Assembly (NCBI GenBank): GCA_964387505.1 | Contig: CAYLWF010000021.1 | Coordinates: 12-64,011, forward strand | DNA from: an uncultured Candidatus Saccharibacteria bacterium | GTDB taxonomy: Bacteria; Patescibacteriota; Saccharimonadia; Saccharimonadales; UBA4665 | DNA: 64,000 nt | Direction of reading: 5' to 3' | Part shown: piece after piece, positions 8,827-50,070 of the stretch | Position numbering within the stretch: the stretch's first letter is position 1 | Layout of the letters: every line of letters starts with the position of its first letter | Made by a program: the position numbers and the translations under genes | The notes under the pieces: generated by a model | Told to the model about the DNA's origin: nothing | Seen by the model: only the letters and a program-made list of their open reading frames with translations | Database searches by the model: none

Positions 8827-8883
8827 GTAGTTTCCTTACCGTAGTGCGTGTTGCTCAGAAATTTTTCAGCCAGGCGGAGCACA

Positions 8884-22600: not shown

Positions 22601-22633
22601 TTATGCTCCTTTCATTGAATCATGTGGCATGAA

Positions 22634-30545: not shown

Positions 30546-30702
30546 ATGTCCAAATTCCCATAGTATTCCATGCGTATCGCATGTTAAGCAAAAGACAAAT
30601 TGTACCTTATTAAGGACAGTGAAACCCTCGTTGAAAGCATTGTCTTAAGAGCGAGTGGCAAAAACCCTTAACTCTTGTTACGCAACTCTGTATACTGAGG
30701 GT

Positions 30703-31662: not shown

Positions 31663-31667
31663 GACCA

Positions 31668-31766
31668 GCTAGTGTGCAAGGTCAGACCTCGCACAAAGAA
31701 ATTATGATTTTTGCAAATCTCAAGATTTATAAAACCTTTGTGCGAGGTCTGACCTTGCACACTAGC
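31668..31766. repeat. 31-bp perfect inverted repeat with a 37-nt AT-rich spacer between purC and purB
   Basis: The arms are 31668..31698 (GCTAGTGTGCAAGGTCAGACCTCGCACAAAG) and 31736..31766 (its exact reverse complement). Confidence 0.9.
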
Positions 31767-31789
31767 ACCCCGCTGAAAGGAGTCACTCA

Positions 31790-33175: not shown

Positions 33176-33185
33176 CGTTTAACTT

Positions 33186-34097
33186 TCAATCCTTTCGCTC
33201 TTTCGTGTCTCTCGTGATTCCATAGGTAGTTATTAGGAGTGTGAGGGCGCCGAGGGCTTGGGTGGGGGTGAGGCCTTGGTGGAGGAAGATCCAGCCGATC
33301 ACCACAGCGCTGAGTGGCCAGGCGAGTTCCAGGATGGCGGCGCGACTGGCGGCGACTCGCTGGAGGCCGTAGTAGTAAATGAGCAGTGCGACGAGCCCAG
33401 TGCTAAAGGTTATTGCGAGGAGATAGAAAAATTGCGTTTGGCTTAGCTGAGATACTGCGGCGGCAGAGCCAGAACCAAGTACGAAAAACAGCGAAATGAC
33501 TGCTGTGAGGCCAAACCGTGCAGCGGTGACATGTGGGTAAGATGTGCCTTTGAGGGCATATTTGGAAAAGGCGGTGCCCACACCCCAACTAGCAGCAGCA
33601 CCAGCAGCGTACAGGGCGGTGACCAGTGTGCCCTTCCCTGTGTCGAGATTCACGGTCATGTCGGGAAAACTAACGAGGTATGCGCCCGCAAGTGCCACGG
33701 CGCTCAGGCCCAAAAAGCGCGGACTTAGTTTTTCACGCAGCAGAACGGCCGCGGTCGCGATAGCAAAGATCGGGTTTAGCTGTTGCAAAAGTACAACAAC
33801 TGAAAAGTTTATGAAGTTAATCTGCCCCAGTGCGGCAGTATAGAGGATGGTACCGAGCGCGCCAGATAGCAGTGCCACGAGCGCCATAGCCCACCATTGT
33901 TTGCGCGTGAGCTCGCGAAACTTCGAGCGTGTAGACCACAGAAATGGCACTAGAAACACGAGTCCCAGCATGTGCTCCCAAAAAACGATTACGGATGGCG
34001 GAAGACTGTATAGGTTGCGCCGCAGCAGCCCGTCCACGCTCCATAGTAAAGCCGCGATGACTACAGCCAAAGCCCCCGCATGCGCGATTTTTTTCAT
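33186..34097 (-). CDS. EamA/DMT-family transporter
   Basis: 303 aa with ~10 TM helices and two EamA-like halves. Confidence 0.7.
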   Translation of the reverse strand: MKKIAHAGALAVVIAALLWSVDGLLRRNLYSLPPSVIVFWEHMLGLVFLVPFLWSTRSKFRELTRKQWWAMALVALLSGALGTILYTAALGQINFINFSVVVLLQQLNPIFAIATAAVLLREKLSPRFLGLSAVALAGAYLVSFPDMTVNLDTGKGTLVTALYAAGAAASWGVGTAFSKYALKGTSYPHVTAARFGLTAVISLFFVLGSGSAAAVSQLSQTQFFYLLAITFSTGLVALLIYYYGLQRVAASRAAILELAWPLSAVVIGWIFLHQGLTPTQALGALTLLITTYGITRDTKERKD

Positions 34098-34341
34098 AGA
34101 TTTCCCTTTCTACTGCCACTGGCAGTAACTCGATTGCTCGAGCTCCCGACTATACGGTCGGTGCATGAGTTTCACATGCTCATCCCGCTGGCTAGCGAGT
34201 CGACGACTATCACGTCCGATTGGCGAATTTCACGCCACCCTGGTTAGTTTGTTTACCTCTATATACTACCATATTCTGCCTGACGGCTCCGCCAGAGGGT
34301 TTATTGTAAAAAATACAAATTCTGCTATACTATTGCAAATA

Positions 34342-35508
34342 ATGCAAGCGGAGCAAATGGAACAGGTCTGTAGGCCAGAAACGGCACCCTTAGCAGAGGT
34401 GTTTCATGAGTTTTATGACCCAAACGCGTATTTTCATGGTAATGAAACTGCGCTCTTGGGCTGGCTGTACGAAAGAAGACATGATAAGCCAGTTGTCGTG
34501 CAATCGGCTGAAGGTGAACGAAGCTTGAGGGTGCGCGAGCAGTTGGCTGTCGAGCTTGGACATATGTGCTTGCTTCGTGAAGATAATCTAGGCGAATGGA
34601 CCGGACTTGGGCTTCGTGAAGAAGAGCTTCAAGCTACTCTCAGGATTGCAGAGTTTGGAGTTGCGTCTACGGTCAAAAGTGTGCTGCTGGCAGCCGCAAA
34701 CATTAAAAGGCTAAGGGGTATTAATTCTCGCATTCGAGAGCTACAAGAGCAAAAAGAGGCTGATGGTGTAGACATTATTCTGGCTGGTGCTGTTGTGGCA
34801 GCAAATGCACACAAGGATCAAAAAAGGCTGAACGGCGCCTCATTCTACACACACCCTGTTTCGGTGGCCACACTAGTGTCGATTGCCACTAGGGACGCCC
34901 CCGGCTGGAAGAAAAAAATAGGGGTTCTCAAAACGAGGCTACGGCAATACGGTGCGCTGACGCATGACGCAACGGAAGATCTGATTCCGGATGAGTTTGA
35001 AAACTGTGGTACTTCGTTTTTGCAGACGCCAAACTTGCTCGCAACACCCTTGCTGCATAAACGACTACTACAGTCCTACAGGGCATCAGAAGACGATGCT
35101 AACAATGCTGCTCGGGTAGCATATGTATTGACAAAACCTGCGGGTATAGATGGTAGGATGGAAAATACGCGGTACATGGCCCGCTTCGTAGGTGAAATTG
35201 ATGCTATTCTCATTAAACTTGCAGACATTACACATAACCTAACAATAGATCCTAAAGAAATGCCAATTGGAGATTATGACAAAATACAGATTTGGCGAAA
35301 CAAACGGAAGACGTACGAAAATAACATCACATATCTCAAGAAGCTGGTTGTGGAGGATGAGGACTCAACAAAACAAGACGTATATATTGCGTGTCAGGTT
35401 ACGGAAATACCTAAAAGAAGGCTAATATCTGTACGTTTGCGAAGAATACTAAGCCAAGTGACGAGCGAAATCGCGGTTGCTGCGTACGAAAAAGCACTCG
35501 CTGCCTAG
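34342..35508 (+). CDS. HD-domain protein with a RelA/SpoT-type (p)ppGpp-hydrolase-like domain and an unknown N-terminal region
   Basis: The track ORF starts at 34165. The AT-rich stretch 34260..34340 looks like a promoter, so ATG 34342 (MQAEQMEQV) is the likelier start. HD motifs are FYTHPVSVA, ALTHDATED and ILIKLADITHNL. No synthetase domain is present. Confidence 0.6.
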   Translation: MQAEQMEQVCRPETAPLAEVFHEFYDPNAYFHGNETALLGWLYERRHDKPVVVQSAEGERSLRVREQLAVELGHMCLLREDNLGEWTGLGLREEELQATLRIAEFGVASTVKSVLLAAANIKRLRGINSRIRELQEQKEADGVDIILAGAVVAANAHKDQKRLNGASFYTHPVSVATLVSIATRDAPGWKKKIGVLKTRLRQYGALTHDATEDLIPDEFENCGTSFLQTPNLLATPLLHKRLLQSYRASEDDANNAARVAYVLTKPAGIDGRMENTRYMARFVGEIDAILIKLADITHNLTIDPKEMPIGDYDKIQIWRNKRKTYENNITYLKKLVVEDEDSTKQDVYIACQVTEIPKRRLISVRLRRILSQVTSEIAVAAYEKALAA

Positions 35509-35560
35509 AAATCCACATCCAATTGCTCTAGACTGTAGGGAGTAACTGGAGGGAGCCTGG

Positions 35561-36376
35561 GTGAACTTTATAGAGAAGCTTGAGGCGGCTGTGGCAAAGA
35601 GCGAGTCTTTGGTATGCGTGGGGCTGGATAGTGATGTGGCGAAACTACCGGCCGGTGTTGACCAGCTGGCGTTCAATAAGGCGATGGTCGACGCGACGCA
35701 TGACCTGGTCGCGGCGTACAAACCAAACACCGCGTTTTATGAAGCAGCGGGAGCTGAAGGTGTACAAGTGCTCAAAGATACGTGCGATTACATTCGCGCA
35801 AAGGCACCGGGCGTACTTATCATCTTAGACGCAAAGCGGGCAGACATAGGCAATACAAATAGCGGCTATGTACAGTTCGCGTACGACTACCTCGAGGCTG
35901 ATGCGATTACCTTACATCCGTACTTAGGCGGCGAGGCGCTGGAGCCGTTTCTGGCTCGTGAAGACAAGGGTGCTATCGTACTATGTCGCACATCAAATGA
36001 CGGTGCGGCAGAGTTTCAGGACCAAATAGTAGGTACGAAAAAAGTGTTCGAATATGTGGCCGAAACTGTGGCGCGTGACTGGAATAAGAATAAAAATTGT
36101 ATGCTAGTGGTCGGCGCGACCTACCCCGAAGAAGCCCAGGCAATCCGTGAAGCGGTGGGTGATGATATGTGGTTTTTGGTACCAGGCGTGGGAGCACAAG
36201 GCGGCGATGTTGCGAAACTCATGGCGGCGGCGCAGAATAGTCGCGGCACTGGCCTGCTGATAAACTCATCTCGTGGCGTCATTTTTGCGAGCAATGGCCC
36301 CGACTTTGCCGAAGATGCCCGCAAAGCAACCGAAACACTCCGAAGTGAAATTAACAGCTACAGAAAGGGCAAATGA
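35561..36376 (+). CDS. pyrF: Orotidine 5'-phosphate decarboxylase (type 2)
   Basis: 271 aa with a GTG start. Motifs are VCVGLDSD and ILDAKRADIGNT. Confidence 0.88.
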   Translation: MNFIEKLEAAVAKSESLVCVGLDSDVAKLPAGVDQLAFNKAMVDATHDLVAAYKPNTAFYEAAGAEGVQVLKDTCDYIRAKAPGVLIILDAKRADIGNTNSGYVQFAYDYLEADAITLHPYLGGEALEPFLAREDKGAIVLCRTSNDGAAEFQDQIVGTKKVFEYVAETVARDWNKNKNCMLVVGATYPEEAQAIREAVGDDMWFLVPGVGAQGGDVAKLMAAAQNSRGTGLLINSSRGVIFASNGPDFAEDARKATETLRSEINSYRKGK

Positions 36377-36377
36377 G

Positions 36378-37013
36378 GTGAATGTATTAGGTGAATTAGA
36401 GAAAATTGGTGCTGTTTTTACTGATAAACATTTCGTGTACACCAGCGGCAAACACGGTAGCGGCTATATAAACATGGATATGATGTTTCCGCACACTGCT
36501 CTTGTTGCAGAGCTGTGTAAAGAACTCGCTGCGCCTTTTGCAGGTGAATTTGACACGGTTGTGGCACCTGCCACGGGTGGTATTGTTCTTGCCGTGTTAA
36601 CTGCTCGTGAAACGGGTACAAAAGGAGTGTGGGCCGACAAAGGCGGTGAGAGTGGGTTTATATTTGAACGAGCAGGCTTTGTGCAGCAAATTGCTGGAAA
36701 GCGTGTACTGGTAGTGGAAGATTTGCTTACAACCGGCGGGTCGGTAGAAAAGGTTTGTCGAGAAGTTGAAAAAGTTGGCGGTATTGTAGTTGGTGCAAGT
36801 GTGGTCTGCAATCGCGGTGGTGTTTCGGCTGAAGGCCTCAAGGTGCCACGGCTTGAAGCCTTGGCATCAGTGTCATTCGCTGCATTTGATCCTAGTGAAT
36901 GTGAGTCTTGCAAAGCGGCAGTGCCAATAGTTGAAGACATGGGCCATGGTGACGATTACAAAAAGGAGCATCCGGACTACGCCGGAGGTTATGTAAAGCT
37001 GCAGGAGGCTTGA
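36378..37013 (+). CDS. pyrE: Orotate phosphoribosyltransferase
   Basis: The track ORF 36273.. overlaps pyrF. The in-frame GTG at 36378, just after the pyrF stop, gives VNVLGELEKIGAVF... . The PRPP-binding loop is VLVVEDLLTTGGS. Confidence 0.8.
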   Translation: MNVLGELEKIGAVFTDKHFVYTSGKHGSGYINMDMMFPHTALVAELCKELAAPFAGEFDTVVAPATGGIVLAVLTARETGTKGVWADKGGESGFIFERAGFVQQIAGKRVLVVEDLLTTGGSVEKVCREVEKVGGIVVGASVVCNRGGVSAEGLKVPRLEALASVSFAAFDPSECESCKAAVPIVEDMGHGDDYKKEHPDYAGGYVKLQEA

Positions 37014-37016
37014 AAG

Positions 37017-38081
37017 GTGCTGTACGATCCGAGTAAGACGTTTGCGGAAAATGTGGCGGAGGGGCCGTTCGGTATTGATCCAAAAGACTACCGCGACCCG
37101 AGCGCTGAGCCAAAGTATACGTTCCTCGGTTTTCCCATACAGTTCCCTTTTGGGATTGCCGCCGGTTCCCTGCCCACTTCGCGCCACACGAGTGCAGCGT
37201 TTCGACTCGGTTACGACGTGGTTGTCTATAAAACGCAGCGGGCGCACGAGTTTCCGTGCAACCCGTATCCAAACGTTTTGCCGCTACAGATTGAGGGAGA
37301 TTTAACACCCGAAAAGCTACAGGAGCCGCTGGTCGTGGCAAGCGAATACTCAAGTGACCTTTCAAAGCTGAACATCACAAATTCGTTTGGCGTTCCTTCT
37401 CCCGACCCTAGTGTTTGGACGGCGGATTTGCCTAGTGCAGTTGCCGGTGCTGGCAAGGGTCAGCTGCTCATCATGAGCGTGGTTGGGACTATACGGGAAG
37501 GGTCTGGGCCAGAAGAATACTATGACGATTTTGCAACGTCTGCTTGGCTTGCCAAAGGTGCCGGTGCGCAGGTAGTTGAGATAAACCTGTCTTGTCCAAA
37601 CGTGGCAAGCGAGGGCGTGATTTGCTACAGCCATGATGCCGTAGTCGAAATATGCAAACGTACGAAAGCGGCTTTAGGCGACACGCCGCTGGTTATAAAA
37701 ATAGGGTACTACACTCAGGATCAACAAACAACTCTCGAGGAAATCGTGGGTGATGTCGCACCCTATGTTGCGGCCATCAGTGCCATAAATACCTTGCAGG
37801 GCACCATTATTAACGAGAATGGTGAGCAAGCGCTACCCGGCAAAGGTCGGCTGAAAAGCGGTGTGTGCGGTGCGGGCATAAAATGGGCGGGGCTGGATAT
37901 GGTGCGGCGACTCGATGCTCTGCGTAAAAAAGAAGGCTACAACTACGAAATCATCGGCGTGGGCGGTGTGATGACGCCGAGTGACTTTGCCGAGTACCGT
38001 GCGGCTGGTGCGGACGTGGTGCAGGCTGTAACGGCACCGATGTGGAACGCGCTTTTAGCGCAGGAAATTAAACAAGCTTGA
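37017..38081 (+). CDS. pyrD: Dihydroorotate dehydrogenase-like flavoenzyme (class 1-type, active-site Cys)
   Basis: 354 aa with a GTG start. It has VEINLSCPNV and a C-terminal IIGVGGV FMN-binding motif. It lies in the pyrF-pyrE context. Confidence 0.7.
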   Translation: MLYDPSKTFAENVAEGPFGIDPKDYRDPSAEPKYTFLGFPIQFPFGIAAGSLPTSRHTSAAFRLGYDVVVYKTQRAHEFPCNPYPNVLPLQIEGDLTPEKLQEPLVVASEYSSDLSKLNITNSFGVPSPDPSVWTADLPSAVAGAGKGQLLIMSVVGTIREGSGPEEYYDDFATSAWLAKGAGAQVVEINLSCPNVASEGVICYSHDAVVEICKRTKAALGDTPLVIKIGYYTQDQQTTLEEIVGDVAPYVAAISAINTLQGTIINENGEQALPGKGRLKSGVCGAGIKWAGLDMVRRLDALRKKEGYNYEIIGVGGVMTPSDFAEYRAAGADVVQAVTAPMWNALLAQEIKQA

Positions 38082-38108
38082 TGGTGTCGGATTTCGCCCA
38101 ACAGGCGA

Positions 38109-38135
38109 CTTCCTTTTTTGCCAGAAAAAAGGAAG
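38109..38135 (+). terminator. Hairpin after pyrD (possible terminator)
   Basis: CTTCCTTTTTT-GCCAG-AAAAAAGGAAG is an 11-bp stem lying 28 nt after the pyrD stop. It has no separate U-tail, so the call is uncertain. Confidence 0.4.
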
Positions 38136-38414
38136 CGAAAAACCTCGGCCAAAGGCTCCAGCTCTTGGTGAAATGTTGCTCAGTTTTACAACCGTCTGGC
38201 ACAATCGTTTCGCTAAGTACCAGCCAACCCTATCGGGTGAGTCGTAAAAGCTGACAACATTTCAGCCACGAGCTTACGCATGGCCATTCAAGCTATATCG
38301 CTAACGCGATTGATTATTAGCGGCTGGCGGCCGCATTCGAACATCGAACATCAAATGTGTATTTCACCTGGGATGGTAGCGCAACAGAGGAAAGTTTTAC
38401 CTTATCTCCTAAAT

Positions 38415-39263
38415 TTATCGGAATTTGCGGAGGCGGGCGATGCGGGCTGCCGTGCTGGGATGGGTGGAAAAGAGACTGGAAAGTCCCTGCATGCTAAACA
38501 TGTTGGTGAACATGAGGTGGGCAGCGGCTTGGTCGTTGGGGCGCGGTTGCAGGCCAGCCATGTTTGGTTTGAAGTCCTCTAGTTTTTGTAGGGCACTGGC
38601 GAGGTCGTTGCCGTGGCCAATGAGATGCGCGCCGTGTTCGTCTGCACCAAACTCGCGGCTGCGAGACACTGCCATCTGGATAACCATTGCCGCAAAGGGC
38701 GCGAGTATGAGCATGGCGATGCCACCTATGGGATTGTTGCCGTCTTCGTCATTGCCACCAAAAAGTGAGCCGCCCCAGAAAGCCATTTCGGCCAATATGG
38801 ATATAGCGCCACCGACTGCCGCGGCAATGGTGGAAACGAGCATGTCGTAGTTTTTGACGTGCCCAAGTTCATGGGCGAGAACAGCGCGTAGCTCTCGCTC
38901 GTTGAGGATTTCCGTTATCCCGCGAGTTACCGCTACAACAGCGTTTTTGTGATTGCGGCCTGTGGCGAAGGCATTGGGAATGGGTGTGTCCACAAAATAG
39001 AGCTTTGGCATGGGCAAATTGTCTTTGGTGGTGAGTTCACGGACGGCTTTTTCAACGTGCGGATATTCTTTGGTGTCGAGCGGCATGGCGCGCTGCATTT
39101 TTAGTACCATGCTGCCGCTGAACCAGTACATGCCAAAGTTCATGACTGTCGCCATGAGCAGCGCGACGATTGCCCCGCCCCGCCCGCCAAGCATATAGCC
39201 GATTGCCAAGAATAGTCCGGTCAGTGCACCCAGTAGTAACGTTGTCTTTGCGAATGACTTCAT
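38415..39263 (-). CDS. htpX: M48-family zinc metalloprotease HtpX
   Basis: 282 aa. It has the HELGHVKN zinc motif, 4 TM helices and an HtpX-like C-terminus (HPSTAARI). Confidence 0.88.
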   Translation of the reverse strand: MKSFAKTTLLLGALTGLFLAIGYMLGGRGGAIVALLMATVMNFGMYWFSGSMVLKMQRAMPLDTKEYPHVEKAVRELTTKDNLPMPKLYFVDTPIPNAFATGRNHKNAVVAVTRGITEILNERELRAVLAHELGHVKNYDMLVSTIAAAVGGAISILAEMAFWGGSLFGGNDEDGNNPIGGIAMLILAPFAAMVIQMAVSRSREFGADEHGAHLIGHGNDLASALQKLEDFKPNMAGLQPRPNDQAAAHLMFTNMFSMQGLSSLFSTHPSTAARIARLRKFR

Positions 39264-39367
39264 AGTGTATTCCTCCTTACGGCCGTAGCGGGTATTACCT
39301 TATATTTTCTCACAGGTTGGTTGAAACTTCCAGAATTGAAATCCACAAGGTAGTCCTGTACCATACC

Positions 39368-40663
39368 ATGGTGAAAATAATCGGTGTATTTGGGCAGCAG
39401 CGTGGCGACGAGGGCAAGGGCCGCGTGGTTGATATGCTCGCAGAATCCTGTCAGTTAGTTGCCCGTTTCAATGGCGGTAGCAATGCTGGCCATACAGTTG
39501 TCTTGCCCGATGGCCGCGAACTCGCACTGCACATTGTGCCGTCTGGGATTGCACACGAAGGTGTTGTCAATGTGGTTGGCAATGGTGCCATCATGGACCC
39601 GATCCGGTTTGCCGAGGAGATTGCCGATATCGAAAAGCTTGGTATAGCCGTGACGCCAGAAAACCTAAAAGTTAGTTCTTCTGCTCATTTGGTGCTGCCT
39701 CACTACAAACAGCTCGAGGAAATTCGCGAGCTTGGGCGCGGGTCACAGGGCACCACGAAGGCCGGTATAGCCGACACTTATGCTTCGAAGGCGGCGCGTA
39801 CGGGCGTGCGCGTAGAGCGTGTACTTGGGAGCCATGATTCGCTCTTGCAGGTAGTACGTGAGGGTCTTGAGGCTGTGCAAATGGAGCGAAAAAAGCACGA
39901 CTTGCCATCTGTAGATGTAGAAAATGAAGTAAAACTGTATGCAGAGGCTATGAAAAAACTGCAACCGTTTGTGACTGACACGTCTGTGTATATGAACGAG
40001 CGGCTGGCGGCTGGCGATGCTATGCTTGCCGAAGGCGCACAGGCCTTTTTGCTGGACATTGACCACGGTATGTACCCGTACGTAACGTCTTCAAATACGA
40101 CCGCAGGTGGTGTGGCGACCGGGCTTGGGATTGCGCCCGTGACGCTTGAGCGCTCGATTGGCATTGTGAAAGCCGTGCAGTCTCATGTGGGTGGCGGGCC
40201 GTTCGTCACAGAGATTCACGATGAAAAGGTGCTTTCAGTGCTTCACGGTGACATGTCCACTATAGATGCCGAAAAAGGCACAACCACCGGGCGAGTGCGT
40301 CGGCTTGGTTACTTGGACATCACTGGCATACGCCGGGCGAACATGGTCAATGGTACGACAGAGCTTGCTATCACTAAGCTGGACTGGGTTCCTCGCTATG
40401 GCCGCAGTATTAAAGTCTGCACTTCCTACGAATATCGCGGCGAAACGCTTACTATGGCGCCAGATTCGGCTTGGGCGCTTGAGAAATGCGAACCAGTGTA
40501 CGAAGAGCTTTCAGCTTGGGACGAAGATATTACAGAGGTGCGTTCCTTCGCGGATCTACCGCAGGCCGCCCAAGACTACATAACAGCCATAGAAACCTGG
40601 ACAGGCCTACCGGTCACGTACATAGGCGTTGGTCCTCGCCGCGACCAAGTCATTGTCCGCTAA
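39368..40663 (+). CDS. purA: Adenylosuccinate synthase
   Basis: The track ORF starts at 39317 (TTG). ATG 39368 gives MVKIIGVFGQQRGDEGKGRVVD (P-loop GDEGKG). Further motifs are GTTKAGI and TTGR. Confidence 0.88.
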   Translation: MVKIIGVFGQQRGDEGKGRVVDMLAESCQLVARFNGGSNAGHTVVLPDGRELALHIVPSGIAHEGVVNVVGNGAIMDPIRFAEEIADIEKLGIAVTPENLKVSSSAHLVLPHYKQLEEIRELGRGSQGTTKAGIADTYASKAARTGVRVERVLGSHDSLLQVVREGLEAVQMERKKHDLPSVDVENEVKLYAEAMKKLQPFVTDTSVYMNERLAAGDAMLAEGAQAFLLDIDHGMYPYVTSSNTTAGGVATGLGIAPVTLERSIGIVKAVQSHVGGGPFVTEIHDEKVLSVLHGDMSTIDAEKGTTTGRVRRLGYLDITGIRRANMVNGTTELAITKLDWVPRYGRSIKVCTSYEYRGETLTMAPDSAWALEKCEPVYEELSAWDEDITEVRSFADLPQAAQDYITAIETWTGLPVTYIGVGPRRDQVIVR

Positions 40664-40666
40664 TTG

Positions 40667-43600
40667 CTATATACCAAGTACTTTTGCGAGTGCCGGTCCG
40701 CCGAACTGTTTTGCGACTGTCATTGCATCTGATGGAGCAACGCCATCTGCAAGTTGGTGAGTGAAACGGACTTCCCTTTTTTCATTTTTCTCGGTTTTGA
40801 AGTGTCTGAACGATATCTCTACTGTCGTACGAGCATCATTTTTTGCTTCTTCTAGTCTTTTGACGGCACCATGGTGGTGGGTAGCGAGAACGACACGGTG
40901 CCCGCGCTTGGCAAGCCATTCAAGCGATGCAAGGAGAAAAGCCTCCTGGTAGTAGGATGGGATTGTGGAAAATGGTTCGTCCACGACGACAAGTGATGGT
41001 GCGGCATAACGTAGTTTTTCGGTGATGGTTTTCCAGTACTCCATTTCCATACCGAATGACCCAAGACCTTTGCTAGTATCGTGCTTAGGACGGTCTGCGA
41101 AGATAATGTGCTGATATAGTGGCGAAGACATGGAACTGCTTGGAGAGAAGCCTGTTGCTTGAATAAGCGCGTGGTTGGCAAAAAGTGTCCGAAGTAGCGT
41201 TGTCTTGCCGCTCATATTTGCACCGGATAATACGTCTATGCCGCCCTGTTGATATGTGACGTTGTTTGCAGTGTGATTGCGGTGACTTACATTGCGTGTT
41301 TGTGTGATTGTAGTATAATCTGCTTCTTCCCATGGAGCGTACGCATGCTCTTTCATGAAGGTAGCTATATCAAGCAGCCTCATGAGTAATATTGCTTCTG
41401 AGTAGGGTGTAACGGGTAGTTTGCCTGCAAAATCCCACCTATTACGAGACACATTTCCGATAGGGAGATTTGGGTAGTCTTCCTGCGTCTGTAGTTGTTG
41501 GGAAACCCACTTGCCATACAAACTGCCACTTGCTTTGCTGGCAAAAAATAGCCGAGTATTCGTATCGTAATAGTGAGCTAAGTCTTGGGCGATTGTACCG
41601 TCTATAGCCTCGAGATGGGTTATGATGGCGTCGATAGGCTTGTGGTCATCTGCAACAAAACGTAGGATCGATAGCGTACGAACGACGGGAGTTTTTCCAC
41701 CGGCTTGTTCTACAGTCACCGCTGCGCGATAGAGTGCATCAATTTCACTCACAAAGTTTGGCAGGCCGTTAAGCTGCAGGCCTGATTTTTTAATGATTTT
41801 TTGTAGTTTTTCTGGCACGCCTTTGTGGTGAGGCATAAAAAGATCGTGCAGTCGATAGATAGAGGTATAGGTAAGTTGAGTGCTTTCATGCCTTATCAAT
41901 TCGTTATTCTCCGGGTCGTATGAAGTGGGATAGAAAATATCATCTAACTTCTCCAAAAAGTTTTTTTGACTCCAACCATCTTTCTTAAAATGTGCTTTGC
42001 CAAACGCGTATAGCTTATCGCGGAGTTCAATATCGACAGGCTGTCGGTGGGCAACGCGTTTTTCGTATGCATTATCGCTCGTACTATATTCAAGCCATGC
42101 TTTCAGGGGACGGTACATATTCTGAATTTCTTCAAGAAGACTGATGTAATCTGCGATAAACGTTTGAGGTTTCTCGTCTGTGGGGTTGAGCATGGCTTGA
42201 ATTGTTCTCAGCAGCTGAAGTGCGTAGGCGTCTTTTGTATCAAGCAAGTGAGAGAACTCCTCTTCTGTCATGCTATGATACGGGTCAATTTCAACTTCTA
42301 TTTTCTTGAGCAGTGTTGTAAACGTTTGTGCTACGTTGGCGAGCGGGTTGTATAGTTCCGGCTCAAGCGGGTCTTCGCCGAAGCGGTATCGGTCTCGTGA
42401 GAGGGCAAAAACAAGACGCCGGAAATCATCAAGGTCTGTTCGAAGGTCATCCTTTTGGCCGTACTCGGTAATACGCACGAAAAAGTCCTGACGTGCCCGT
42501 AAGACATCTATTGAGGATGTGCTTCCCTCTTGCAGTAATGTATGTAGTACTGAAAGGGGGTATTCATAGTGGTTGAAGATACTATCGCTACCAAGAATGA
42601 GTGCGGCATTGTACATCGGGGCTGCTTTCGGTACCGTGCCATCACGGGCTTTAGTGATTCTCGTGTAGTTGTAGTCATCATCCATTTGGCTTGGGCATGC
42701 GGGTTTTGTGTTCCCAAACCACATAAAGCCAGCTGGCCCACCTTGCGACTTGAACCATGCGATCGGATCCTCGGGGTTAAGTTGTCGCGTCTCTGTCTCT
42801 GTCAGGTCAAGTGGGGCACCTTTTGCAATTGCTTCAGCGCGGGCAAGTACCTCTTCTGCAAACTGACAGTTACGCGCCTCAGTAAAAGCATCGCTATGTG
42901 CGATGCCAGGCTCAAGTAAGTGTTCACCTTTATCCTTCGACGCTCTGTATGCGACCACTGCGCCCGCTTCTACTGGGGCAGACATGTCGTCATGTGTTGT
43001 GACGAGAGCCATGATGCCAAGACGACGCAGACCGTCTAGGTAGCGTATAAGGAGCTCTTGTCTTTCGTCTGGGTCAGTACCTGAAAATGGCTCGTCACCG
43101 ATGTAGAGAGTGATTGCGTCTGGGTTTTGTGCGAGCAGTGTTTCGACAGTCGTTACCAGTTTACCAAGCTTAACAACTTCTTCACCAAAGGCACTGAGTT
43201 CGCCACCACTCTCTGGTCGTGCAACCTCCTGTAGTAAGCGCACAGGAGGTACTACTGCACTTTCGGCTGCTACATGCCCAGTCGAAAGGCCATTCCTTAT
43301 GGCCGCTGCAATAGCTTCAGTTGCAAAGGTCTTTCCCGATCCTGGACTGCCGGTGATAATGACTGGCCTGTCACTGATTGTTATGGAATGGCGAGACTGA
43401 GCGGCAGGATTGAAACGTGGGTGGAAAAAATTATCGAGTGTAATCTCGCGGGCGCCTGAAACGTGTGCGGGCTTGGCGGGCAGCGTAGAGACAAACGAAG
43501 CGAGAGCCAGTGTGTTGGTAGTATGCCGATACATTTTGGCTGAATCATCGAGTACTCGTTGCTGAGCACTATTTAGCTCTTTGCCGCTATTCTGGATGTA

Positions 43601-44221
43601 TACTGAGACACAGAGAGATCTGGATGCTTTAGTTTTGGTATACGATCCTTGCTGCTCTGCAAGACGTGCAAGGTGGGGGTAGTCTTGAGCGTAATGATTA
43701 TTGAATGCTGCAGCCGCCTTTCTTTCTCCATGGAGTTTAGTGGGTAGCTGCCATACCGGAAAGTCATCTGGCCTGTACTGGACCTGCTCAGAATCGGACG
43801 CTTTACGAGAGGCACTATCGCGTCTGTACTGTTCTATGCGGGGGGTGTATATGGGCTGTTCTTTTGTGCTGAGTTTCGGGTCAAACACGCTGCTAGTGAG
43901 CCAATCGTGCAACTCGCCGGCTGCAAAACAGTCTCGAAATAGTCCATGAGCAGTCTCATCGGCTGCGAGCTTTTGCAGTTCGCTAAGGATTTGCTGTCTT
44001 TGCTTCACGGCGTCAGGGTCACTACTCGCTTCGTTGAGTATGTAATCTAGTGGATTGAAACCATAAAATGTCTTGGGTTCTCCCATGAGGGCTGGGTTGA
44101 GCGGAAGGCTGCCTTTTTTCAGTGGTCTGCGCAAGGAGCTTGGATCTATACTATTCGCAATAAGCGGCGCCGGATTGCAAAAAACAGCACCAAGGACTCC
44201 TTGCTCTACAACAGAATTCAT
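40667..44221 (-). CDS. Tandem MutS-type (domain V-like) ABC ATPase protein. No mismatch-binding or nuclease domain was recognised.
   Basis: 1184 aa. Half 1 has VIITGSPGSGKT, LYIGDEPFSGTDPDE and LVTTHDD. Half 2 has VLSGANMSGKTTLLRTL, LVVVDEPFS and VLATHHHG. Confidence 0.6.
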   Translation of the reverse strand: MNSVVEQGVLGAVFCNPAPLIANSIDPSSLRRPLKKGSLPLNPALMGEPKTFYGFNPLDYILNEASSDPDAVKQRQQILSELQKLAADETAHGLFRDCFAAGELHDWLTSSVFDPKLSTKEQPIYTPRIEQYRRDSASRKASDSEQVQYRPDDFPVWQLPTKLHGERKAAAAFNNHYAQDYPHLARLAEQQGSYTKTKASRSLCVSVYIQNSGKELNSAQQRVLDDSAKMYRHTTNTLALASFVSTLPAKPAHVSGAREITLDNFFHPRFNPAAQSRHSITISDRPVIITGSPGSGKTFATEAIAAAIRNGLSTGHVAAESAVVPPVRLLQEVARPESGGELSAFGEEVVKLGKLVTTVETLLAQNPDAITLYIGDEPFSGTDPDERQELLIRYLDGLRRLGIMALVTTHDDMSAPVEAGAVVAYRASKDKGEHLLEPGIAHSDAFTEARNCQFAEEVLARAEAIAKGAPLDLTETETRQLNPEDPIAWFKSQGGPAGFMWFGNTKPACPSQMDDDYNYTRITKARDGTVPKAAPMYNAALILGSDSIFNHYEYPLSVLHTLLQEGSTSSIDVLRARQDFFVRITEYGQKDDLRTDLDDFRRLVFALSRDRYRFGEDPLEPELYNPLANVAQTFTTLLKKIEVEIDPYHSMTEEEFSHLLDTKDAYALQLLRTIQAMLNPTDEKPQTFIADYISLLEEIQNMYRPLKAWLEYSTSDNAYEKRVAHRQPVDIELRDKLYAFGKAHFKKDGWSQKNFLEKLDDIFYPTSYDPENNELIRHESTQLTYTSIYRLHDLFMPHHKGVPEKLQKIIKKSGLQLNGLPNFVSEIDALYRAAVTVEQAGGKTPVVRTLSILRFVADDHKPIDAIITHLEAIDGTIAQDLAHYYDTNTRLFFASKASGSLYGKWVSQQLQTQEDYPNLPIGNVSRNRWDFAGKLPVTPYSEAILLMRLLDIATFMKEHAYAPWEEADYTTITQTRNVSHRNHTANNVTYQQGGIDVLSGANMSGKTTLLRTLFANHALIQATGFSPSSSMSSPLYQHIIFADRPKHDTSKGLGSFGMEMEYWKTITEKLRYAAPSLVVVDEPFSTIPSYYQEAFLLASLEWLAKRGHRVVLATHHHGAVKRLEEAKNDARTTVEISFRHFKTEKNEKREVRFTHQLADGVAPSDAMTVAKQFGGPALAKVLGI

Positions 44222-44317
44222 TTGAATATACTATAGTATTTATTTATAAAATATACAAATAAATTTCGCTTCAGTCTTTCAGCTTTTCAAGCTATAACTT
44301 GGCCGTCTGCTCTACGA

Positions 44318-45124
44318 TTAGTAGGTGTTGTTGAACGTCTTCATGAGCGTATGCAAAACATCTGGATATGACTCATAGCTATGGGTATTCACAGAGTGGA
44401 TGGGGAGGATTTTGGCGGAGGTGCTGGTGAGGAAGGCGGCGTCGTAGTCGGCGAGTGAGCTGAGTGGGATTGGTTGTTCTAACACTGCAAACCTCTGCTC
44501 TTTCGCAAGTTTTAGGACATGGTCGCGGGTGACGCCGAGGAGAATGTCTGATTCTGGTGGTGAGAAAATAGTCTTGCCTTTGAGCGTGAAAAAGTTACTA
44601 CGCGTACCTTCGGTGATTTCGCCGCGGTGGTTTATGAGGAGCGCGTCGTGTGCTCCAGCTTTTTGCGCTTCGCGGTATGCAATGTAACTTGGCAGCATAT
44701 TGAGTGTTTTTGCATGCGGGTACATGCGTTCGTACCCGTAGGTAGTGCAGTGGCAGCCGGTTTTGTAGAGTTTGCGGTCGACAAAATACGGTGCGAGACA
44801 GATGATGTATAGGTCAACATCTTCTGCAGTTTTCCCGCCTATGAGTAGGACTTTCACGTTGCACGTTTCAACTTCATTTGCTTTCACTAACTCTGTTATA
44901 TGCTGTCCAATTTCACTTGGTTTGTAGGAGTGCTCAAGCCCAATGGTGCTGGCTGAGGTTTGCAAACGCATGCAGTGTTCTTCGAGAAATCGTACTTTCC
45001 CGCCAGAAACACGGATAGTTTCATAGACGCCAAAGCCGTAGCTGTACTCGATGCTCGCGAGCGACACAACCGCTTGTTCGACTGGAAGTACTTCGCCGTT
45101 TTGTGAAAAGTACGAAAATATCAT
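44318..45124 (-). CDS. Class IV (D-amino-acid/branched-chain) aminotransferase
   Basis: The Arg-rich N-terminus of the track ORF (to 45325) overlaps dapF. ATG 45124 (MIFSYFSQNG) gives an ATGA overlap with the dapF stop. Motifs are YPHAKTLNML (PLP Lys) and EGTRSNFF. Confidence 0.75.
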   Translation of the reverse strand: MIFSYFSQNGEVLPVEQAVVSLASIEYSYGFGVYETIRVSGGKVRFLEEHCMRLQTSASTIGLEHSYKPSEIGQHITELVKANEVETCNVKVLLIGGKTAEDVDLYIICLAPYFVDRKLYKTGCHCTTYGYERMYPHAKTLNMLPSYIAYREAQKAGAHDALLINHRGEITEGTRSNFFTLKGKTIFSPPESDILLGVTRDHVLKLAKEQRFAVLEQPIPLSSLADYDAAFLTSTSAKILPIHSVNTHSYESYPDVLHTLMKTFNNTY

Positions 45125-45894
45125 ATGTCTACCATTCCTTTCTGAGTTGTTTCGACGGGAGCAAGCAAGCGGGCGTAACCGGCGCCATCTAACCAGACGC
45201 GCGCTTCCCCGCCCGGCACGGTAACGGTGGCGGGCAGCTGCGTTTCTTTGCGCTGCGCGGCAGTGATGGCGGTGGCGACCATGCCGGTGCCGCAGGCTTG
45301 GGTTTCGCCGACGCCGCGTTCCCATATGCGCAGCCGAATGTGCGTTGGGCTGACGATTTCGGCGAATTCCACGTTTGTTTTGTGTGGAAAATGAGGATCG
45401 TGCTCTATGAGTGGGCCGAGCGTCGTGACGGGAGCTTTAGTAACGTCTTTGACAAATGTGATAGCGTGCGGATTGCCGACGGAAGCGGTGTAGAAATCCT
45501 TACCATCCAGCACTAGCGGCTTAGGGTCGACCTTGACTGTGCCAATCTGGGCTTCAATGGGGCTGGAAGTGTCCTCTGGGCAGATAACTTCGAGCGAACC
45601 GACGGGGGTTTCGACGGTAAAATTACCAGCCCTAACCATGCTGTTTTCGACGGCAAAACGCGCTGTGCAGCGCAAGCCGTTGCCGCACATTTCGGCCGCC
45701 GAACCATCTGCGTTCCAGTACTGAATACGCACACGGTTATCTGGCAACGGGCTGACGATAAGTACGCCGTCTGCGCCAAGTCCAGTACGGCGGTCGCAGA
45801 GCGATGCGATGGTTTGGGCATGTAAAGCCAGCGGCCCGGAAAAGACAATAAAGTCGTTGCCGAGGCCATTCATATGAGTGTAGGGGACGCGCAT
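45121..45894 (-). CDS. dapF: Diaminopimelate epimerase
   Basis: 257 aa. Motifs are MNGLGNDFIVF, CGNGLRC and ACGTG (the two catalytic Cys motifs). Confidence 0.9.
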   Translation of the reverse strand: MRVPYTHMNGLGNDFIVFSGPLALHAQTIASLCDRRTGLGADGVLIVSPLPDNRVRIQYWNADGSAAEMCGNGLRCTARFAVENSMVRAGNFTVETPVGSLEVICPEDTSSPIEAQIGTVKVDPKPLVLDGKDFYTASVGNPHAITFVKDVTKAPVTTLGPLIEHDPHFPHKTNVEFAEIVSPTHIRLRIWERGVGETQACGTGMVATAITAAQRKETQLPATVTVPGGEARVWLDGAGYARLLAPVETTQKGMVDI

Positions 45895-48921: not shown

Positions 48922-50070
48922 TTAGCTCTTCTCTATTTCAGTTTTCGCAATGACAAGTTTCTTTGGTTCCATGTGGCCTTTTCGCTCTATCAACTCTAGC
49001 AAACGGTAGTTTACATAGTAAATATGTCTGCCCTTACGCGAGCTTTTCAGGAGTCCTGCCGTTTCCAGTTTTTTCAGGTACTTACTGGTTGTGACATAGT
49101 GCAGACCAGTGTCTTTTGCGAGCCGAACGGGTGTTTGAACGGGCCTGGCAAAAAGCGCATTGAGTAGTTCGTGGCTGTATATATTTGGCAGACTGCCTTT
49201 AACTTCGTCTTTGAACTCACGCTGCAAATCTTGTATGCGTTGCAGTAGTGCGAAGCTATGATTTGCTTGCGTCGTGAAAGCCTTTAGCATAAAACGTATA
49301 AAATCCTCAAGCTTACCGGCCGAGGTTACCTCGCGCAGCAACCGATAGTAGCGTGATTTGTTGACATTTATGTACTGGCTTATGTGTACGACGGGAATAT
49401 CGAGCAAGCCCGCATGTATGAGCTGCAGATTTATGAGCATTCTGCCAGTGCGGCCATTGCCGTCCTCAAATGGGTGTATGGCCTCAAACTGATAGTGGGC
49501 GGCTGCTGTTACGATGAGCGGGTCGACATCATTTTTGGCGTTGACTAGTTTTTCCCAGTCACTGATAAGCATAGGAATATTGGCAGCATTTGGAGGAGTG
49601 TAGTGTATTTTACCCCTGCCATCACCTATTACTACTGGGAGACGGCGATACCCTTCTGCTCCAGTCGGAATCAAACGGTGCTGAATGCCTGTGATGAGAC
49701 GTGAAATCAGTCCGTACTGCCCGACATGGTTAAACCCCCATAGCGAAGCTACCGTGTAGTTTATGACCAGTTGGCTGCTTGATTTACTGTCGGCATCTGG
49801 AGCGACCTGGCGCTGCATAACCTCTAGAAGCGTGGTGTTGATATTTTCGATTTCTGAACTCTCAACCGCTTCTTTGACAAAAATAGGATTCATGAGCGAC
49901 ACGCCGCTTTGTGGCAGCCCTCGCAAGTAGCCCTTTATCTGCGCCAGTGCAATGTTTGCCTCAGTGAGTTCGCGCGACAAACTTGCTTCAGCTGCCTGCA
50001 GCTGGGCAGTGGTGATAGGGGGTACTATGTAGGGTTTTTTTGCGTCAAAACTCATGCCAGTAGTATACAC
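48922..50070 (-). CDS. Fic-family protein (AMPylase-type) with an intrinsic inhibitory motif and a C-terminal wHTH-like region
   Basis: 382 aa. The Fic active site is HPFEDGNGRTGR. The N-terminal SSEIEN fits the (S/T)xxxE(G/N) inhibitory helix. Confidence 0.85.
   Translation of the reverse strand: MYTTGMSFDAKKPYIVPPITTAQLQAAEASLSRELTEANIALAQIKGYLRGLPQSGVSLMNPIFVKEAVESSEIENINTTLLEVMQRQVAPDADSKSSSQLVINYTVASLWGFNHVGQYGLISRLITGIQHRLIPTGAEGYRRLPVVIGDGRGKIHYTPPNAANIPMLISDWEKLVNAKNDVDPLIVTAAAHYQFEAIHPFEDGNGRTGRMLINLQLIHAGLLDIPVVHISQYINVNKSRYYRLLREVTSAGKLEDFIRFMLKAFTTQANHSFALLQRIQDLQREFKDEVKGSLPNIYSHELLNALFARPVQTPVRLAKDTGLHYVTTSKYLKKLETAGLLKSSRKGRHIYYVNYRLLELIERKGHMEPKKLVIAKTEIEKS

What the first reader, a model, noticed from the sequence alone, without database searches (positions are those of the whole stretch)
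40667..44221. Single-chain tandem MutS-type ATPase (intramolecular pseudo-dimer) with no recognisable mismatch-binding or nuclease domain
The 1184-aa protein contains two MutS domain-V-like ABC ATPase cassettes. The first has a non-MutS Walker A (GSPGSGKT) but a canonical MutS Walker B/signature region (IGDEPFSGTDPDE ... TTHD). The second has a MutS-like Walker A (GANMSGKTTLLR) but a degenerate post-Walker-B region (VDEPFSTIPS ... ATHH). MutS proteins act as dimers with asymmetric ATPase sites. A covalent fusion of two complementary, partly degenerate cassettes would hard-wire that asymmetry. I see no MutS-I mismatch domain, no Smr domain and no other endonuclease. The gene stands alone between purA and a convergent... 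rather, a same-strand aminotransferase gene. It has its own AT-rich upstream region (44222..44317) and looks somewhat lower in GC than its neighbours. Its function is open: it could be a clamp, a recombination suppressor or a defence NTPase.
Basis: partly seen in the sequence, partly recalled or inferred. Interest (0 to 1): 0.7.

Follow-up and report, generated by a model that had tools for sequence, protein, structure and literature searches.

The report
Single-chain double MutS-type ATPase
One 1184-residue protein of an uncultured Saccharibacterium carries two complete MutS-type ATP engines in a single chain, and it belongs to a widespread but unstudied family found mainly in ultra-small bacteria and archaea whose cellular job is unknown.

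Summary
The ORF 40667-44221 (-) is real, and the identical protein recurs in at least 9 independent contigs. Both halves contain a complete MutS domain-V ATPase. By profile comparison the halves are homologous over about 370 columns (E 1e-54), which extends about 150 residues upstream of each cassette. No MutS-I/II/IV, Smr or nuclease domain is present. The AT-rich upstream region and the lower GC are confirmed.

First, neither cassette is degenerate. In 130 tandem relatives the Walker A Lys, Walker B Asp-Glu, signature Ser and His are each kept in more than 92% of both cassettes, and "DE-x-FSTTSP" is the family consensus. Second, the protein is not an orphan. An exhaustive search finds 108 cluster representatives at E<=1e-30. 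Nearly all are about 1150-1600 aa with two cassettes. The named ones come from CPR phyla, Omnitrophota, Margulisiibacteriota/Saganbacteria and Nanoarchaeota. All are labelled "hypothetical" or auto-labelled "MutS".

A confident AlphaFold model (pLDDT 88, pTM 0.81) matches ATP-closed two-NBD exporters about twice as well as single-NBD or open ones, which points to an intramolecular ATP sandwich. The 400-residue middle domain has no PDB match. No gene partner is conserved. The substrate (DNA, ribosome or protein) is unresolved.

Verdict: a new, uncharacterised variant of the MutS family.

The parts
40667..44221 (-). CDS of the 1184-aa tandem MutS-type ATPase (stop codon 40667-40669)
   Evidence: The identical product is on at least 9 independent contigs. 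Full-length colinear homologues P0002-P0010.
43457..44221 (-). N-terminal all-helical domain (aa 1-255), the arm of module 1. It has no Pfam match and is homologous to the two ends of the middle domain.
   Evidence: no Pfam hit. (helical, pLDDT mostly 75-95). (aa 56-107 align with 557-609, and aa 144-255 with 841-935).
43967..44020 (-). First 'RQ' helix, DPDAVKQRQQILSELQKL (aa 68-85). It resembles the motif that opens MutS domain III.
   Evidence: R75 is invariant or nearly so. Weak but consistent hhalign matches to E. coli MutS 303-333 and to about 600-aa single-cassette MutS paralogues (E about 2e-3).
42812..43456 (-). ATPase cassette 1 (aa 256-470), a MutS domain-V fold including the C-terminal helix pair. 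Walker A is at 43328-43351, signature ELSAFGEE at 43178-43201, Walker B at 43073-43108, and His410 within 42989-43003.
   Evidence: MutS2 7vuf_B, 1.6e-12; E. coli MutS 546-794.
42602..42811 (-). Inter-module linker (aa 471-540), partly disordered in the model, with a conserved G498/W501/N504 patch in the close clade
   Evidence: pLDDT below 50 at 514-531. (invariant columns).
41417..42601 (-). Middle all-helical domain (aa 541-935), the arm of module 2. It contains the second RQ helix (42461-42514).
   Evidence: homology to the N-terminal domain. (model pLDDT 86, pTM 0.85). (no structural, PDB-sequence or Pfam match).
41702..42391 (-). Insert of about 230 aa (aa 611-840) in module 2. Module 1 has only about 36 aa (108-143) at the same position. 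It consists of long helices plus a small three-stranded sheet (aa 766-784), is net acidic, and varies in length between homologues.
   Evidence: alignment gap. (secondary structure). (net charge -9, and only R734 conserved). (indels).
40670..41416 (-). ATPase cassette 2 (aa 936-1184), Pfam MutS_V. Walker A is at 41201-41224, signature GLGSFGMEM at 41042-41068, Walker B at 40958-40993, and ATHHH within 40871-40888.
   Evidence: (Taq MutS 2e-10).
44222..44317 (-). AT-rich (GC 0.29) upstream intergenic region. It has TATAGT/TATATT-like elements just before the ATG and no obvious Shine-Dalgarno sequence, so it probably holds the gene's own promoter.
   Evidence: The consensus promoter scan found nothing on the minus strand. 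No Rfam family matched.

Best explanation
The gene encodes a member of an undescribed subfamily of MutS-family ATPases. Two modules, each a helical arm plus a complete MutS domain-V ATPase, are fused in one chain. They arose by an old internal duplication. Shown: both cassettes are MutS-type, both keep every catalytic motif, and the halves are homologous beyond the ATPase. Inferred from the model: the two cassettes close on each other head-to-tail within one molecule, like the two subunits of a MutS dimer or the two NBDs of a full-length ABC exporter. This would form two composite and probably both active ATP sites. Inferred: ATP binding and hydrolysis move the two unequal helical arms (about 250 aa and about 400 aa), so the protein works as a single-chain ATP-driven clamp or switch on a macromolecular substrate, in a housekeeping role. 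My best guess for the substrate is DNA, meaning recombination or uptake intermediates. I put this at about 0.35, stalled ribosomes at about 0.2, a protein client at about 0.15, defence at about 0.05, and something else for the rest. The confidence given below refers to the architecture and the intramolecular-dimer mechanism, not to the substrate.
For: MutS identity of both cassettes. Cassettes homologous to each other. Whole halves homologous (probability 100, E 1e-54, aa 80-461 with 780-1184, plus 56-107 with 557-609). Catalytic motifs conserved in both cassettes of 130 tandem proteins. Invariant K297, D376, E377, H410, K1006, E1082, H1115 in 40 relatives. In a neighbour-joining tree the c1 and c2 cassettes form a clade that excludes E. 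coli MutS and the roughly 600-aa single-cassette paralogues, and cassettes group by position (46/52 and 45/52 nearest neighbours). Confident whole-chain model (pLDDT 88, pTM 0.81). TMq is 0.22-0.25 to ATP-bound NBD-closed ABCB1/MRP/CFTR, 0.13 to inward-open MRP2 and 0.10-0.12 to single-NBD ABC proteins. Both cassettes keep the trans-acting signature Ser and the C-terminal helix pair that aligns with MutS 774-794. Housekeeping, vertically inherited locus (convergent with purA, next to the M48 peptidase and pyrD/E/F in three Saccharibacteria). DNA-related neighbours elsewhere (type IV pilus genes | tandem | recA ... recX, recJ, dnaG-rpoD). Saccharibacteria are reported to lack MutS and MutL (PMC8406219).
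Against: Model coordinates and PAE were not available, so the head-to-tail contact is inferred from TM-scores only. The test for trans-versus-cis covariation of Walker A and signature changes was inconclusive. The middle domain, modelled alone with confidence, has no match to MutS domains III/IV or to anything else in the PDB. The arms are net acidic, with only six conserved Lys/Arg outside the cassettes, which is not what a MutS-like DNA clamp would show. The nearest curated profile for both cassettes is KamC, an enzyme reactivase rather than a DNA protein. Neighbourhoods outside the closest clade share no partner gene, and some point to translation rescue instead (smpB, efp).
Confidence: 0.6

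Rival explanations
1. Ribosome-rescue factor working like MutS2/RqcU. The single-chain ATPase would recognise collided or stalled ribosomes and split them with ATP, without the Smr nuclease.
For: The best solved-structure matches of cassette 1 are MutS2 chains, including ribosome-bound B. subtilis MutS2 (7vuf, 9kce, 7qv3, 8qpp). smpB lies 50 nt downstream on the same strand in one Saccharibacterium, and efp lies 17 nt downstream in a Margulisiibacteriota genome. The acidic arms are unlike a DNA clamp.
Against: There is no KOW, coiled-coil or Smr region. The TIGR01069 mutS2 score is 45.9 against a cut-off of 400. The two translation-related neighbours are single cases, and other loci show recA/recX, recJ or dnaG instead. 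Cassette 2 resembles MutS1 and KamC more than MutS2.
Confidence: 0.2
2. ATP-driven protein remodeller of the KamC type (an enzyme or cofactor reactivase), acting on a protein client and not on nucleic acid.
For: KamC (NF052383) is the best NCBIfam profile for the whole protein (111.8 bits, 2 stretches), for each cassette on its own, and for distant relatives (160-170 bits). One clade (P0047, 7 members) fuses the tandem module to B12-binding, radical-SAM and methyltransferase domains. The arms are acidic.
Against: All scores fall far below the KamC cut-off of 300. There are no aminomutase or other B12-enzyme genes near the gene in the window or in 10 other loci. The KamC similarity of this protein covers only the ATPase core (profile positions 297-433).
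Confidence: 0.15
3. Stand-alone anti-phage defence NTPase.
For: PADLOC gives partial hits to mad8 of the MADS system (6.7e-14, 50 bits) and to HEC-02A (3e-7). The gene has lower GC3 than its neighbours. A giant relative sits beside a serine recombinase and an HTH gene. The window also holds Fic, RhuM and Schlafen-AlbA_2 genes 5-17 kb away.
Against: The hits cover ATPase motifs only. No effector (nuclease, TIR, protease and so on) is found in 40 relatives. The locus is syntenic and housekeeping in three Saccharibacteria, and other contexts are core genes. The GC3 dip is shared by homologues at the same locus, so it is not a sign of recent import. No copies are found on viral contigs.
Confidence: 0.05
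4. The two cassettes do not pair within one chain. Instead, chains associate so that each cassette pairs with a cassette of another molecule (a domain-swapped dimer or filament).
For: The linker of about 70 residues is partly disordered and would allow swapping. No coordinates were available to confirm the intramolecular contact. The covariation test was inconclusive.
Against: A pTM of 0.81 for a 1184-residue two-module chain implies a confidently placed inter-module arrangement. TMq to closed two-NBD exporters is about double that to single-NBD or open ones.
Confidence: 0.15

Closest known systems
MutS2 (RqcU; endonuclease MutS2, TIGR01069)
   Same: It lacks the mismatch-binding domains I and II and has a helical N-terminal part followed by a MutS domain-V ATPase. 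Cassette 1's best solved-structure matches are MutS2 chains.
   Different: MutS2 is a homodimer of single-cassette chains with coiled-coil, KOW and Smr nuclease domains. Here two cassettes share one chain and there is no KOW or Smr. The score is 45.9 bits against a cut-off of 400.
MutS1 / MSH heterodimers (mismatch repair; MSH2-MSH6, MSH4-MSH5)
   Same: The ATPase fold and motifs are the same, including the signature S-x-F, the His, and a C-terminal helix pair that aligns with E. coli MutS 774-794. The dimer has two composite ATP sites. Eukaryotic heterodimers show that two diverged MutS modules can divide labour (the heterodimer asymmetry is my own knowledge).
   Different: There is no domain I (Phe-x-Glu), II or IV. 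The helical arms show no recognisable MutS lever or clamp fold. The fusion is covalent. In the tandem family both sites are equally conserved.
KamC (NF052383, lysine 5,6-aminomutase reactivase ATPase) and the 'MutSac-only' paralogues MutS3/MutS4 of Lin, Nei and Ma 2007 (PMC2190696)
   Same: KamC is the best-scoring curated profile for both cassettes. These are MutS paralogues reduced to a helical part plus ATPase. MutS3 and MutS4 often occur as A/B pairs, with MutS4A/B as neighbouring genes, which suggests heterodimers and a plausible precursor state of a fusion.
   Different: They are single-cassette proteins of about 500-600 aa. The scores here are far below cut-off. The roughly 600-aa single-cassette paralogues have 'DE-x-x-RGTNS' after Walker B, whereas the tandem family has 'DE-x-FSTTSP', and they fall outside the c1+c2 clade. 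No aminomutase context is present.
Giant-virus MutS8 / MutS7
   Same: These are the top structural matches among viral models (E 6e-13 to 2.5e-10; TMt up to 0.48 for proteins of about 540 aa). MutS8 also lacks the mismatch domain (my own knowledge, Ogata et al. 2011).
   Different: They have a single cassette. MutS7 carries domain I and an HNH nuclease. No relative of the tandem family was found on viral contigs.
Single-chain two-NBD ABC proteins (ABCB1, CFTR, MRP; by analogy UvrA and ABC-F)
   Same: Two nucleotide-binding domains sit in one polypeptide and close into an ATP sandwich. The whole model superposes best on the ATP-bound closed states.
   Different: There are no transmembrane domains and no LSGGQ signature. 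ABC_tran scores below its threshold (20.3 against 25). The cassettes are of MutS type.

Membership tests
MutS family (defined by the domain-V ATPase, Pfam PF00488) | A domain-V ATPase recognised by MutS-specific profiles better than by generic ABC/AAA profiles | tested here: met
   Cassette 2: PF00488, 40.4 bits against 30.2. Cassette 1: MutS2 7vuf_B at 1.6e-12 with the family profile, while the best generic ABC chain scores 6e-3; hhalign to E. coli MutS gives probability 98.4. Relatives hit PF00488 twice, at 1e-27 to 1e-40, and 40 of 40 members hit it.
MutS family (defined by the domain-V ATPase, Pfam PF00488) | Walker A GxxxxGK[ST], signature S-x-F, Walker B D-E and the conserved His, in each cassette | tested here: met
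   This protein has two rare substitutions (N293P, S1054G), but all catalytic residues are present.
MutS family (defined by the domain-V ATPase, Pfam PF00488) | Core domain III preceding the ATPase | tested here: inconclusive
   An RQ-motif helix opens each arm. hhalign matches to MutS 303-333 are weak (E about 2e-3). Pfam MutS_III hits appear in 7 of 40 relatives, best 3e-6, mostly below threshold. Foldseek of the middle domain alone finds no MutS.
MutS family (defined by the domain-V ATPase, Pfam PF00488) | Clamp domain IV at the end of lever helices | tested here: not met
   No PF05190 hit in 40 members. The insert at 611-840 has no structural or sequence match and is acidic.
MutS1 (mismatch-repair MutS, TIGR01070 / NF003810) | Mismatch-binding domain I (Phe-x-Glu) and connector domain II, with a score above the equivalog cut-off | tested here: not met
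   No MutS_I or MutS_II hit. The score is 34-36 bits against cut-offs of 480-642.
MutS2 (TIGR01069) | C-terminal Smr nuclease domain (and KOW), with a score above cut-off | tested here: not met
   No Smr or KOW. The score is 45.9 bits against 400.
KamC reactivase (NF052383) | Score above the equivalog cut-off, and genomic association with lysine 5,6-aminomutase genes | tested here: not met
   The score is 111.8 bits against 300, covering the ATPase core only. No aminomutase or B12 enzyme lies near the gene in the window or in related loci.
ABC transporter-type tandem NBD proteins | ABC_tran domain with an LSGGQ signature | tested here: not met
   ABC_tran scores 20.3 bits against 25 and covers only the P-loop. 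The signature here is LSAFG/LGSFG.
MADS defence system, Mad8 | Full-length match to Mad8 and an operon with the other mad genes (methyltransferase and so on) | tested here: not met
   The match is partial, with the best stretch at 338-413 on profile positions 167-235 of 314. The neighbours are purA and an aminotransferase.
Proposed family: single-chain tandem MutS-V ATPases | Two MutS-V cassettes in one chain, about 450-900 residues apart, each with 'LS[AS]FG-E' and 'DE-x-FS[TS]T' motifs, and each preceded by a helical arm | tested here: met
   There are 130 tandem proteins among the 150 best representatives, and this protein is colinear over its full length with P0002-P0010.

The most novel reading that the evidence does not exclude
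This is a founding example of a new MutS subfamily: a monomeric, two-site ATP clamp with arms of novel fold. It would have been retained in the tiny genomes of CPR bacteria, DPANN archaea and Omnitrophota as their MutL-independent device for policing imported or recombining DNA. In effect it would be a single-chain replacement for the MutS dimer in lineages that, like Saccharibacteria, have lost MutS and MutL.
Probability: 0.15. Interest if true: 0.8.

Novelty: new variant of a known kind. Interest (0 to 1): 0.55.

Why it matters
All studied MutS proteins work as dimers of separate chains, and their two ATP sites behave asymmetrically. A natural single-chain version with two distinguishable, fully conserved sites would let each site be mutated independently without mixed dimers. 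That is a clean tool for studying how MutS-type ATPases couple nucleotide state to clamp movement. Biologically, a gene of 1200-1500 codons kept in roughly 1-Mb genomes of episymbiotic, ultra-small prokaryotes is probably important. Saccharibacteria are reported to lack MutS and MutL, so this protein is a candidate for an unrecognised genome-maintenance or ribosome-quality-control function. The two helical arms have no structural precedent, so the substrate-binding part is new.

Tried and rejected
1. Word-indexed homologue searches with the protein and with its alignment found only 4 clusters. The exhaustive profile search was needed to reveal the family.

2. I proposed that the extra 230 residues of module 2 are a MutS lever/clamp (domains III/IV). 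The middle domain was modelled alone (pLDDT 86), but Foldseek against the PDB gave nothing (best E 0.25). The profile against PDB sequences and Pfam also gave nothing. The idea is not supported.

3. I tested for trans-specific covariation between the Walker A of one cassette and the signature of the other, as evidence for head-to-tail pairing. Trans associations were weak (p 0.03-0.05), and one cis pair was stronger (p 2e-4). Events are not phylogenetically independent, so the test is inconclusive.

4. The metagenome scan with a broad-clade alignment used generic Walker A patterns. It returned 80 loci, 79 with ordinary single-cassette MutS paralogues of about 600 aa and one fragment of the tandem family; no ORF had two cassettes. 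It was useless for a neighbourhood census, although the loci served as an outgroup.

5. The genome scan with the 40-sequence alignment failed because no block was conserved enough. It was redone with 10 sequences.

6. The conserved-partner search found nothing shared outside the closest clade.

7. Recent horizontal transfer as the cause of the low GC is rejected. The locus is syntenic, and homologues show the same GC3 dip.

8. Phage origin is rejected, since no viral contig carries a relative.

9. An RNA element upstream was not found, as no Rfam family matched.

10. Literature searches for a described tandem MutS found nothing. The mad8 domain content could not be learned from the MADS preprint.

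Full report
**The observation**

The window has a 1184-codon ORF on the minus strand at 40667-44221, starting with ATG. The identical protein is encoded on at least nine contigs from independent samples, always after a class-IV aminotransferase gene and convergent with purA. It is therefore a real gene and not an assembly artefact.

**MutS-type or generic P-loop?**

- Pfam places MutS_V on cassette 2 only (aa 997-1176, 40.4 bits against a cut-off of 30.2). On cassette 1 it sees only P-loop fragments of many AAA families.
- More sensitive comparisons settle the question for cassette 1:
  - phmmer against the PDB matches aa 261-418 to the MutS2 ATPase domain (7vuf_B, 7e-6).
  - A profile of the four closest homologues raises this to 1.6e-12 over 260-456.
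  - The same profile matches cassette 2 to Taq MutS at 2e-10 and to human MSH2 at 7e-6, while the best generic ABC chain scores only 6e-3.
  - hhalign of the family alignment against E. coli MutS aligns both cassettes to residues about 540-793 (probabilities 98.9 and 98.4). This includes the C-terminal helix pair after the ATPase core.
- The two cassettes also align to each other directly (29% identity, E 6e-6).
- No MutS_I, II or IV, Smr, HNH or other nuclease domain is found in this protein or in 40 relatives.

**A large family**

The word-indexed search found only four clusters: the protein itself, relatives at 53%, 41% and 28% identity, one of them from a Candidatus Saccharibacteria MAG. 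An exhaustive HMM search of 1.84 billion representatives with that alignment found 304 proteins at E<=1e-10 and 108 at E<=1e-30.

I mapped my own region HMMs on the best 150:
- Ten proteins are colinear with the query over the full length.
- About 130 carry two MutS-V cassettes at roughly 300-500 and 950-1500. Most are 1100-1600 aa long, and a few are giants of 2-5.8 thousand residues.
- In these relatives Pfam itself scores MutS_V twice, at 1e-27 to 1e-40.

Named members come from Saccharibacteria, Roizmanbacteria, Gracilibacteria, Peregrinibacteria, Omnitrophota, Margulisiibacteriota, Saganbacteria and a Nanoarchaeota MAG. Every name is "hypothetical protein" or the automatic "DNA mismatch repair ATPase MutS". 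No curated NCBIfam model reaches its cut-off. The best is KamC at 111.8 bits against 300, followed by MutS2 and MutS1. I found no paper describing a tandem MutS.

**Anatomy**

hhalign of half 1 (aa 1-470) against half 2 (aa 471-1184) gives probability 100 and E 1e-54. It aligns aa 80-461 with 780-1184. A second segment aligns aa 56-107 with 557-609 (probability 89 when the arms are compared alone).

The protein is therefore an internal duplication of a whole module, a helical arm plus an ATPase. Module 2 carries about 230 residues (611-840) where module 1 has about 36.

Each arm opens with a helix, DPDAVKQRQQILSEL and SIDVLRARQDFFVRI, whose Arg (R75, R577) is invariant or nearly so across the family alignments. 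It resembles the motif that opens MutS domain III. The supporting signals are weak but consistent:
- hhalign E is about 2e-3 to E. coli MutS 303-333 and to the equivalent place in single-cassette paralogues of about 600 aa.
- Pfam MutS_III hits appear in 7 of 40 relatives.

I expected the insert to be the MutS lever and clamp, and this failed. The middle domain modelled alone is confident (pLDDT 86, pTM 0.85). Yet it has no structural match in the PDB (best E 0.25), no PDB sequence match and no Pfam match. The arms are also net acidic, with only six conserved basic residues outside the cassettes.

**Are the sites asymmetric by degeneracy?**

No. In 130 tandem proteins both cassettes keep the catalytic residues:

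| Residue | Cassette 1 | Cassette 2 |
|---|---|---|
| Walker A Lys | 128 | 130 |
| Walker B Asp-Glu | 129 | 129 |
| His | 128 | 128 |
| Signature Ser | 123 | 120 |

It is cassette 1 of the Saccharibacteria clade that has drifted, to DEPFSGTDP.
- The cassettes do differ in position-specific ways: GKS against GKT, and H-N-E/D against H-N-H.
- This particular protein has two rare changes, N293P in Walker A1 (2 of 130) and S1054G in signature 2 (8 of 130).
- In a head-to-tail dimer those two changes would lie in the same composite site. A family-wide covariation test could not confirm such coupling.

In a neighbour-joining tree the c1 and c2 cassettes form one clade that excludes E. coli MutS and the roughly 600-aa paralogues. 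Cassettes group by position. This fits a single old duplication.

**Do the halves pack like a MutS dimer?**

The full-length AlphaFold model is confident (pLDDT 88, pTM 0.81), which implies a defined arrangement between the modules.
- Single-NBD ABC proteins give TMq 0.10-0.12.
- An inward-open exporter with its NBDs apart gives 0.13.
- ATP-bound exporters with closed NBD dimers (ABCB1, MRP5, CFTR) give 0.22-0.25 and head the list together with MutS/MSH chains.

Both cassettes therefore superpose at once on a closed ATP sandwich. This is good indirect support for the intramolecular pseudo-dimer, but it is not proof.

**Context**

- The gene lies between purA (convergent, 3 nt apart) and a dapF-aminotransferase pair, inside a purine and pyrimidine biosynthesis region.
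- The arrangement with purA, the M48 peptidase and pyrD/E/F is kept in two other Saccharibacteria whose proteins are 53% and 41% identical.
- The gene's GC (0.484, GC3 0.449) is lower than that of its neighbours, and the 96-nt upstream spacer is extremely AT-rich. Homologues at the same locus show the same GC3 dip. This reflects the gene's own composition or weak codon bias, not recent import.
- Further away in the family there is no shared partner. The neighbours seen are type-IV-pilus genes followed by recA and recX, efp and recJ, smpB, dnaG-rpoD, pyrD/K/E/F, and a recombinase.
- None of the relatives is on a viral contig.
- Saccharibacteria are reported to lack MutS and MutL (PMC8406219).

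**Mechanism**

- Shown: two complete MutS-type ATPase modules in one chain, both sites conserved, and a housekeeping, vertically inherited gene.
- Inferred from the model: an intramolecular ATP sandwich.
- Inferred by analogy: ATP-driven movement of two unequal arms around a macromolecule.
- The substrate is open. DNA recombination or uptake intermediates are my first guess (about 0.35), stalled ribosomes second (about 0.2), a KamC-like protein client third (about 0.15), and defence unlikely (about 0.05).

**Verdict**

The pseudo-dimer idea is supported. The ideas of complementary degenerate cassettes and of a lone orphan are not. It is a new, uncharacterised variant of the MutS family, a member of a broad tandem subfamily with arms of novel fold.

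Noticed in passing
window 20969-40663: The window carries a near-complete set of de novo purine genes (purH, purL, purM, purK, purC, purB, purA) plus pyrF/E/D in what is evidently a Saccharibacteria genome. Host-associated Saccharibacteria are generally described as lacking de novo nucleotide synthesis (my own knowledge), so this lineage looks metabolically richer.
   Followed up: partly
window 58338-61175 (-), with 61180-62265 (-) and 48922-50070 (-): A 945-aa protein fuses a CCA-adding/poly(A) polymerase head domain to a C-terminal Schlafen AlbA_2 domain. Its GC is only 0.40. It lies directly next to a RhuM-family gene, and a Fic/DOC gene lies about 8 kb away. This may be a small mobile or defence islet.
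   Followed up: no
window 7298-8698 (-) and 8848-10188 (+): Two divergently transcribed paralogues have the ferric-reductase transmembrane plus FAD- and NAD-binding domain architecture, which is NOX/FRE-like. This is unexpected in a reduced CPR genome.
   Followed up: no
window 3154-5667 (-) and 34165-35508 (+): Two large ORFs (837 aa and 447 aa) have no Pfam match at E<=1e-5. The 447-aa one is conserved next to pyrF in a related Saccharibacterium (fam9).
   Followed up: no
P0047 cluster (3368-3410 aa, 7 members): One clade fuses B12-binding, radical-SAM and SAM-methyltransferase domains N-terminal to the tandem MutS module. Given that KamC (a B12-enzyme reactivase) is the nearest curated profile, this fusion could be a functional hint or a gene-calling chimera.
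   Followed up: partly
P0028 (5808 aa), P0059 (5414 aa), P0018 (3392 aa, Omnitrophota; locus L021): Giant proteins embed the tandem module with thousands of residues that have no Pfam match. P0018 sits beside a serine recombinase and an HTH gene.
   Followed up: partly
L016 1-13579 (groundwater CPR contig): The gene order is pilin, T2SSF, T2SSE/PilB, pilin, tandem MutS, recA, NUDIX, recX. This single locus puts the family between type-IV-pilus (possible DNA-uptake) genes and the recombinase genes.
   Followed up: partly
P0104, P0106, P0118, P0120, P0127, P0133, P0146-P0148: A second tandem subgroup has cassettes at about 450-650 and 980-1170. Both cassettes resemble the query's cassette 1, and for P0104, the one member scanned, the NCBIfam mutS2 score is nearly as high as the KamC score. 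Tandem fusion may have arisen more than once, or the family may have two deep branches.
   Followed up: no
window 44222-44317 and 44318-45325: The upstream spacer ends in TATAGTATATTCAA-ATG with no Shine-Dalgarno sequence, which suggests a very short or absent leader. The upstream aminotransferase ORF is 335 aa when read from its first ATG and then overlaps dapF by about 200 nt. Gene callers on sister contigs use a 268-aa start that overlaps dapF by 4 nt.
   Followed up: no
L023-L101 (metagenome loci): Single-cassette MutS paralogues of about 600 aa, with 'DE-x-x-RGTNS' after Walker B, are very abundant in soil and sediment metagenomes. They form a tight group nearer to E. coli MutS than to the tandem family and probably correspond to the poorly studied MutS3 type.
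   Followed up: partly
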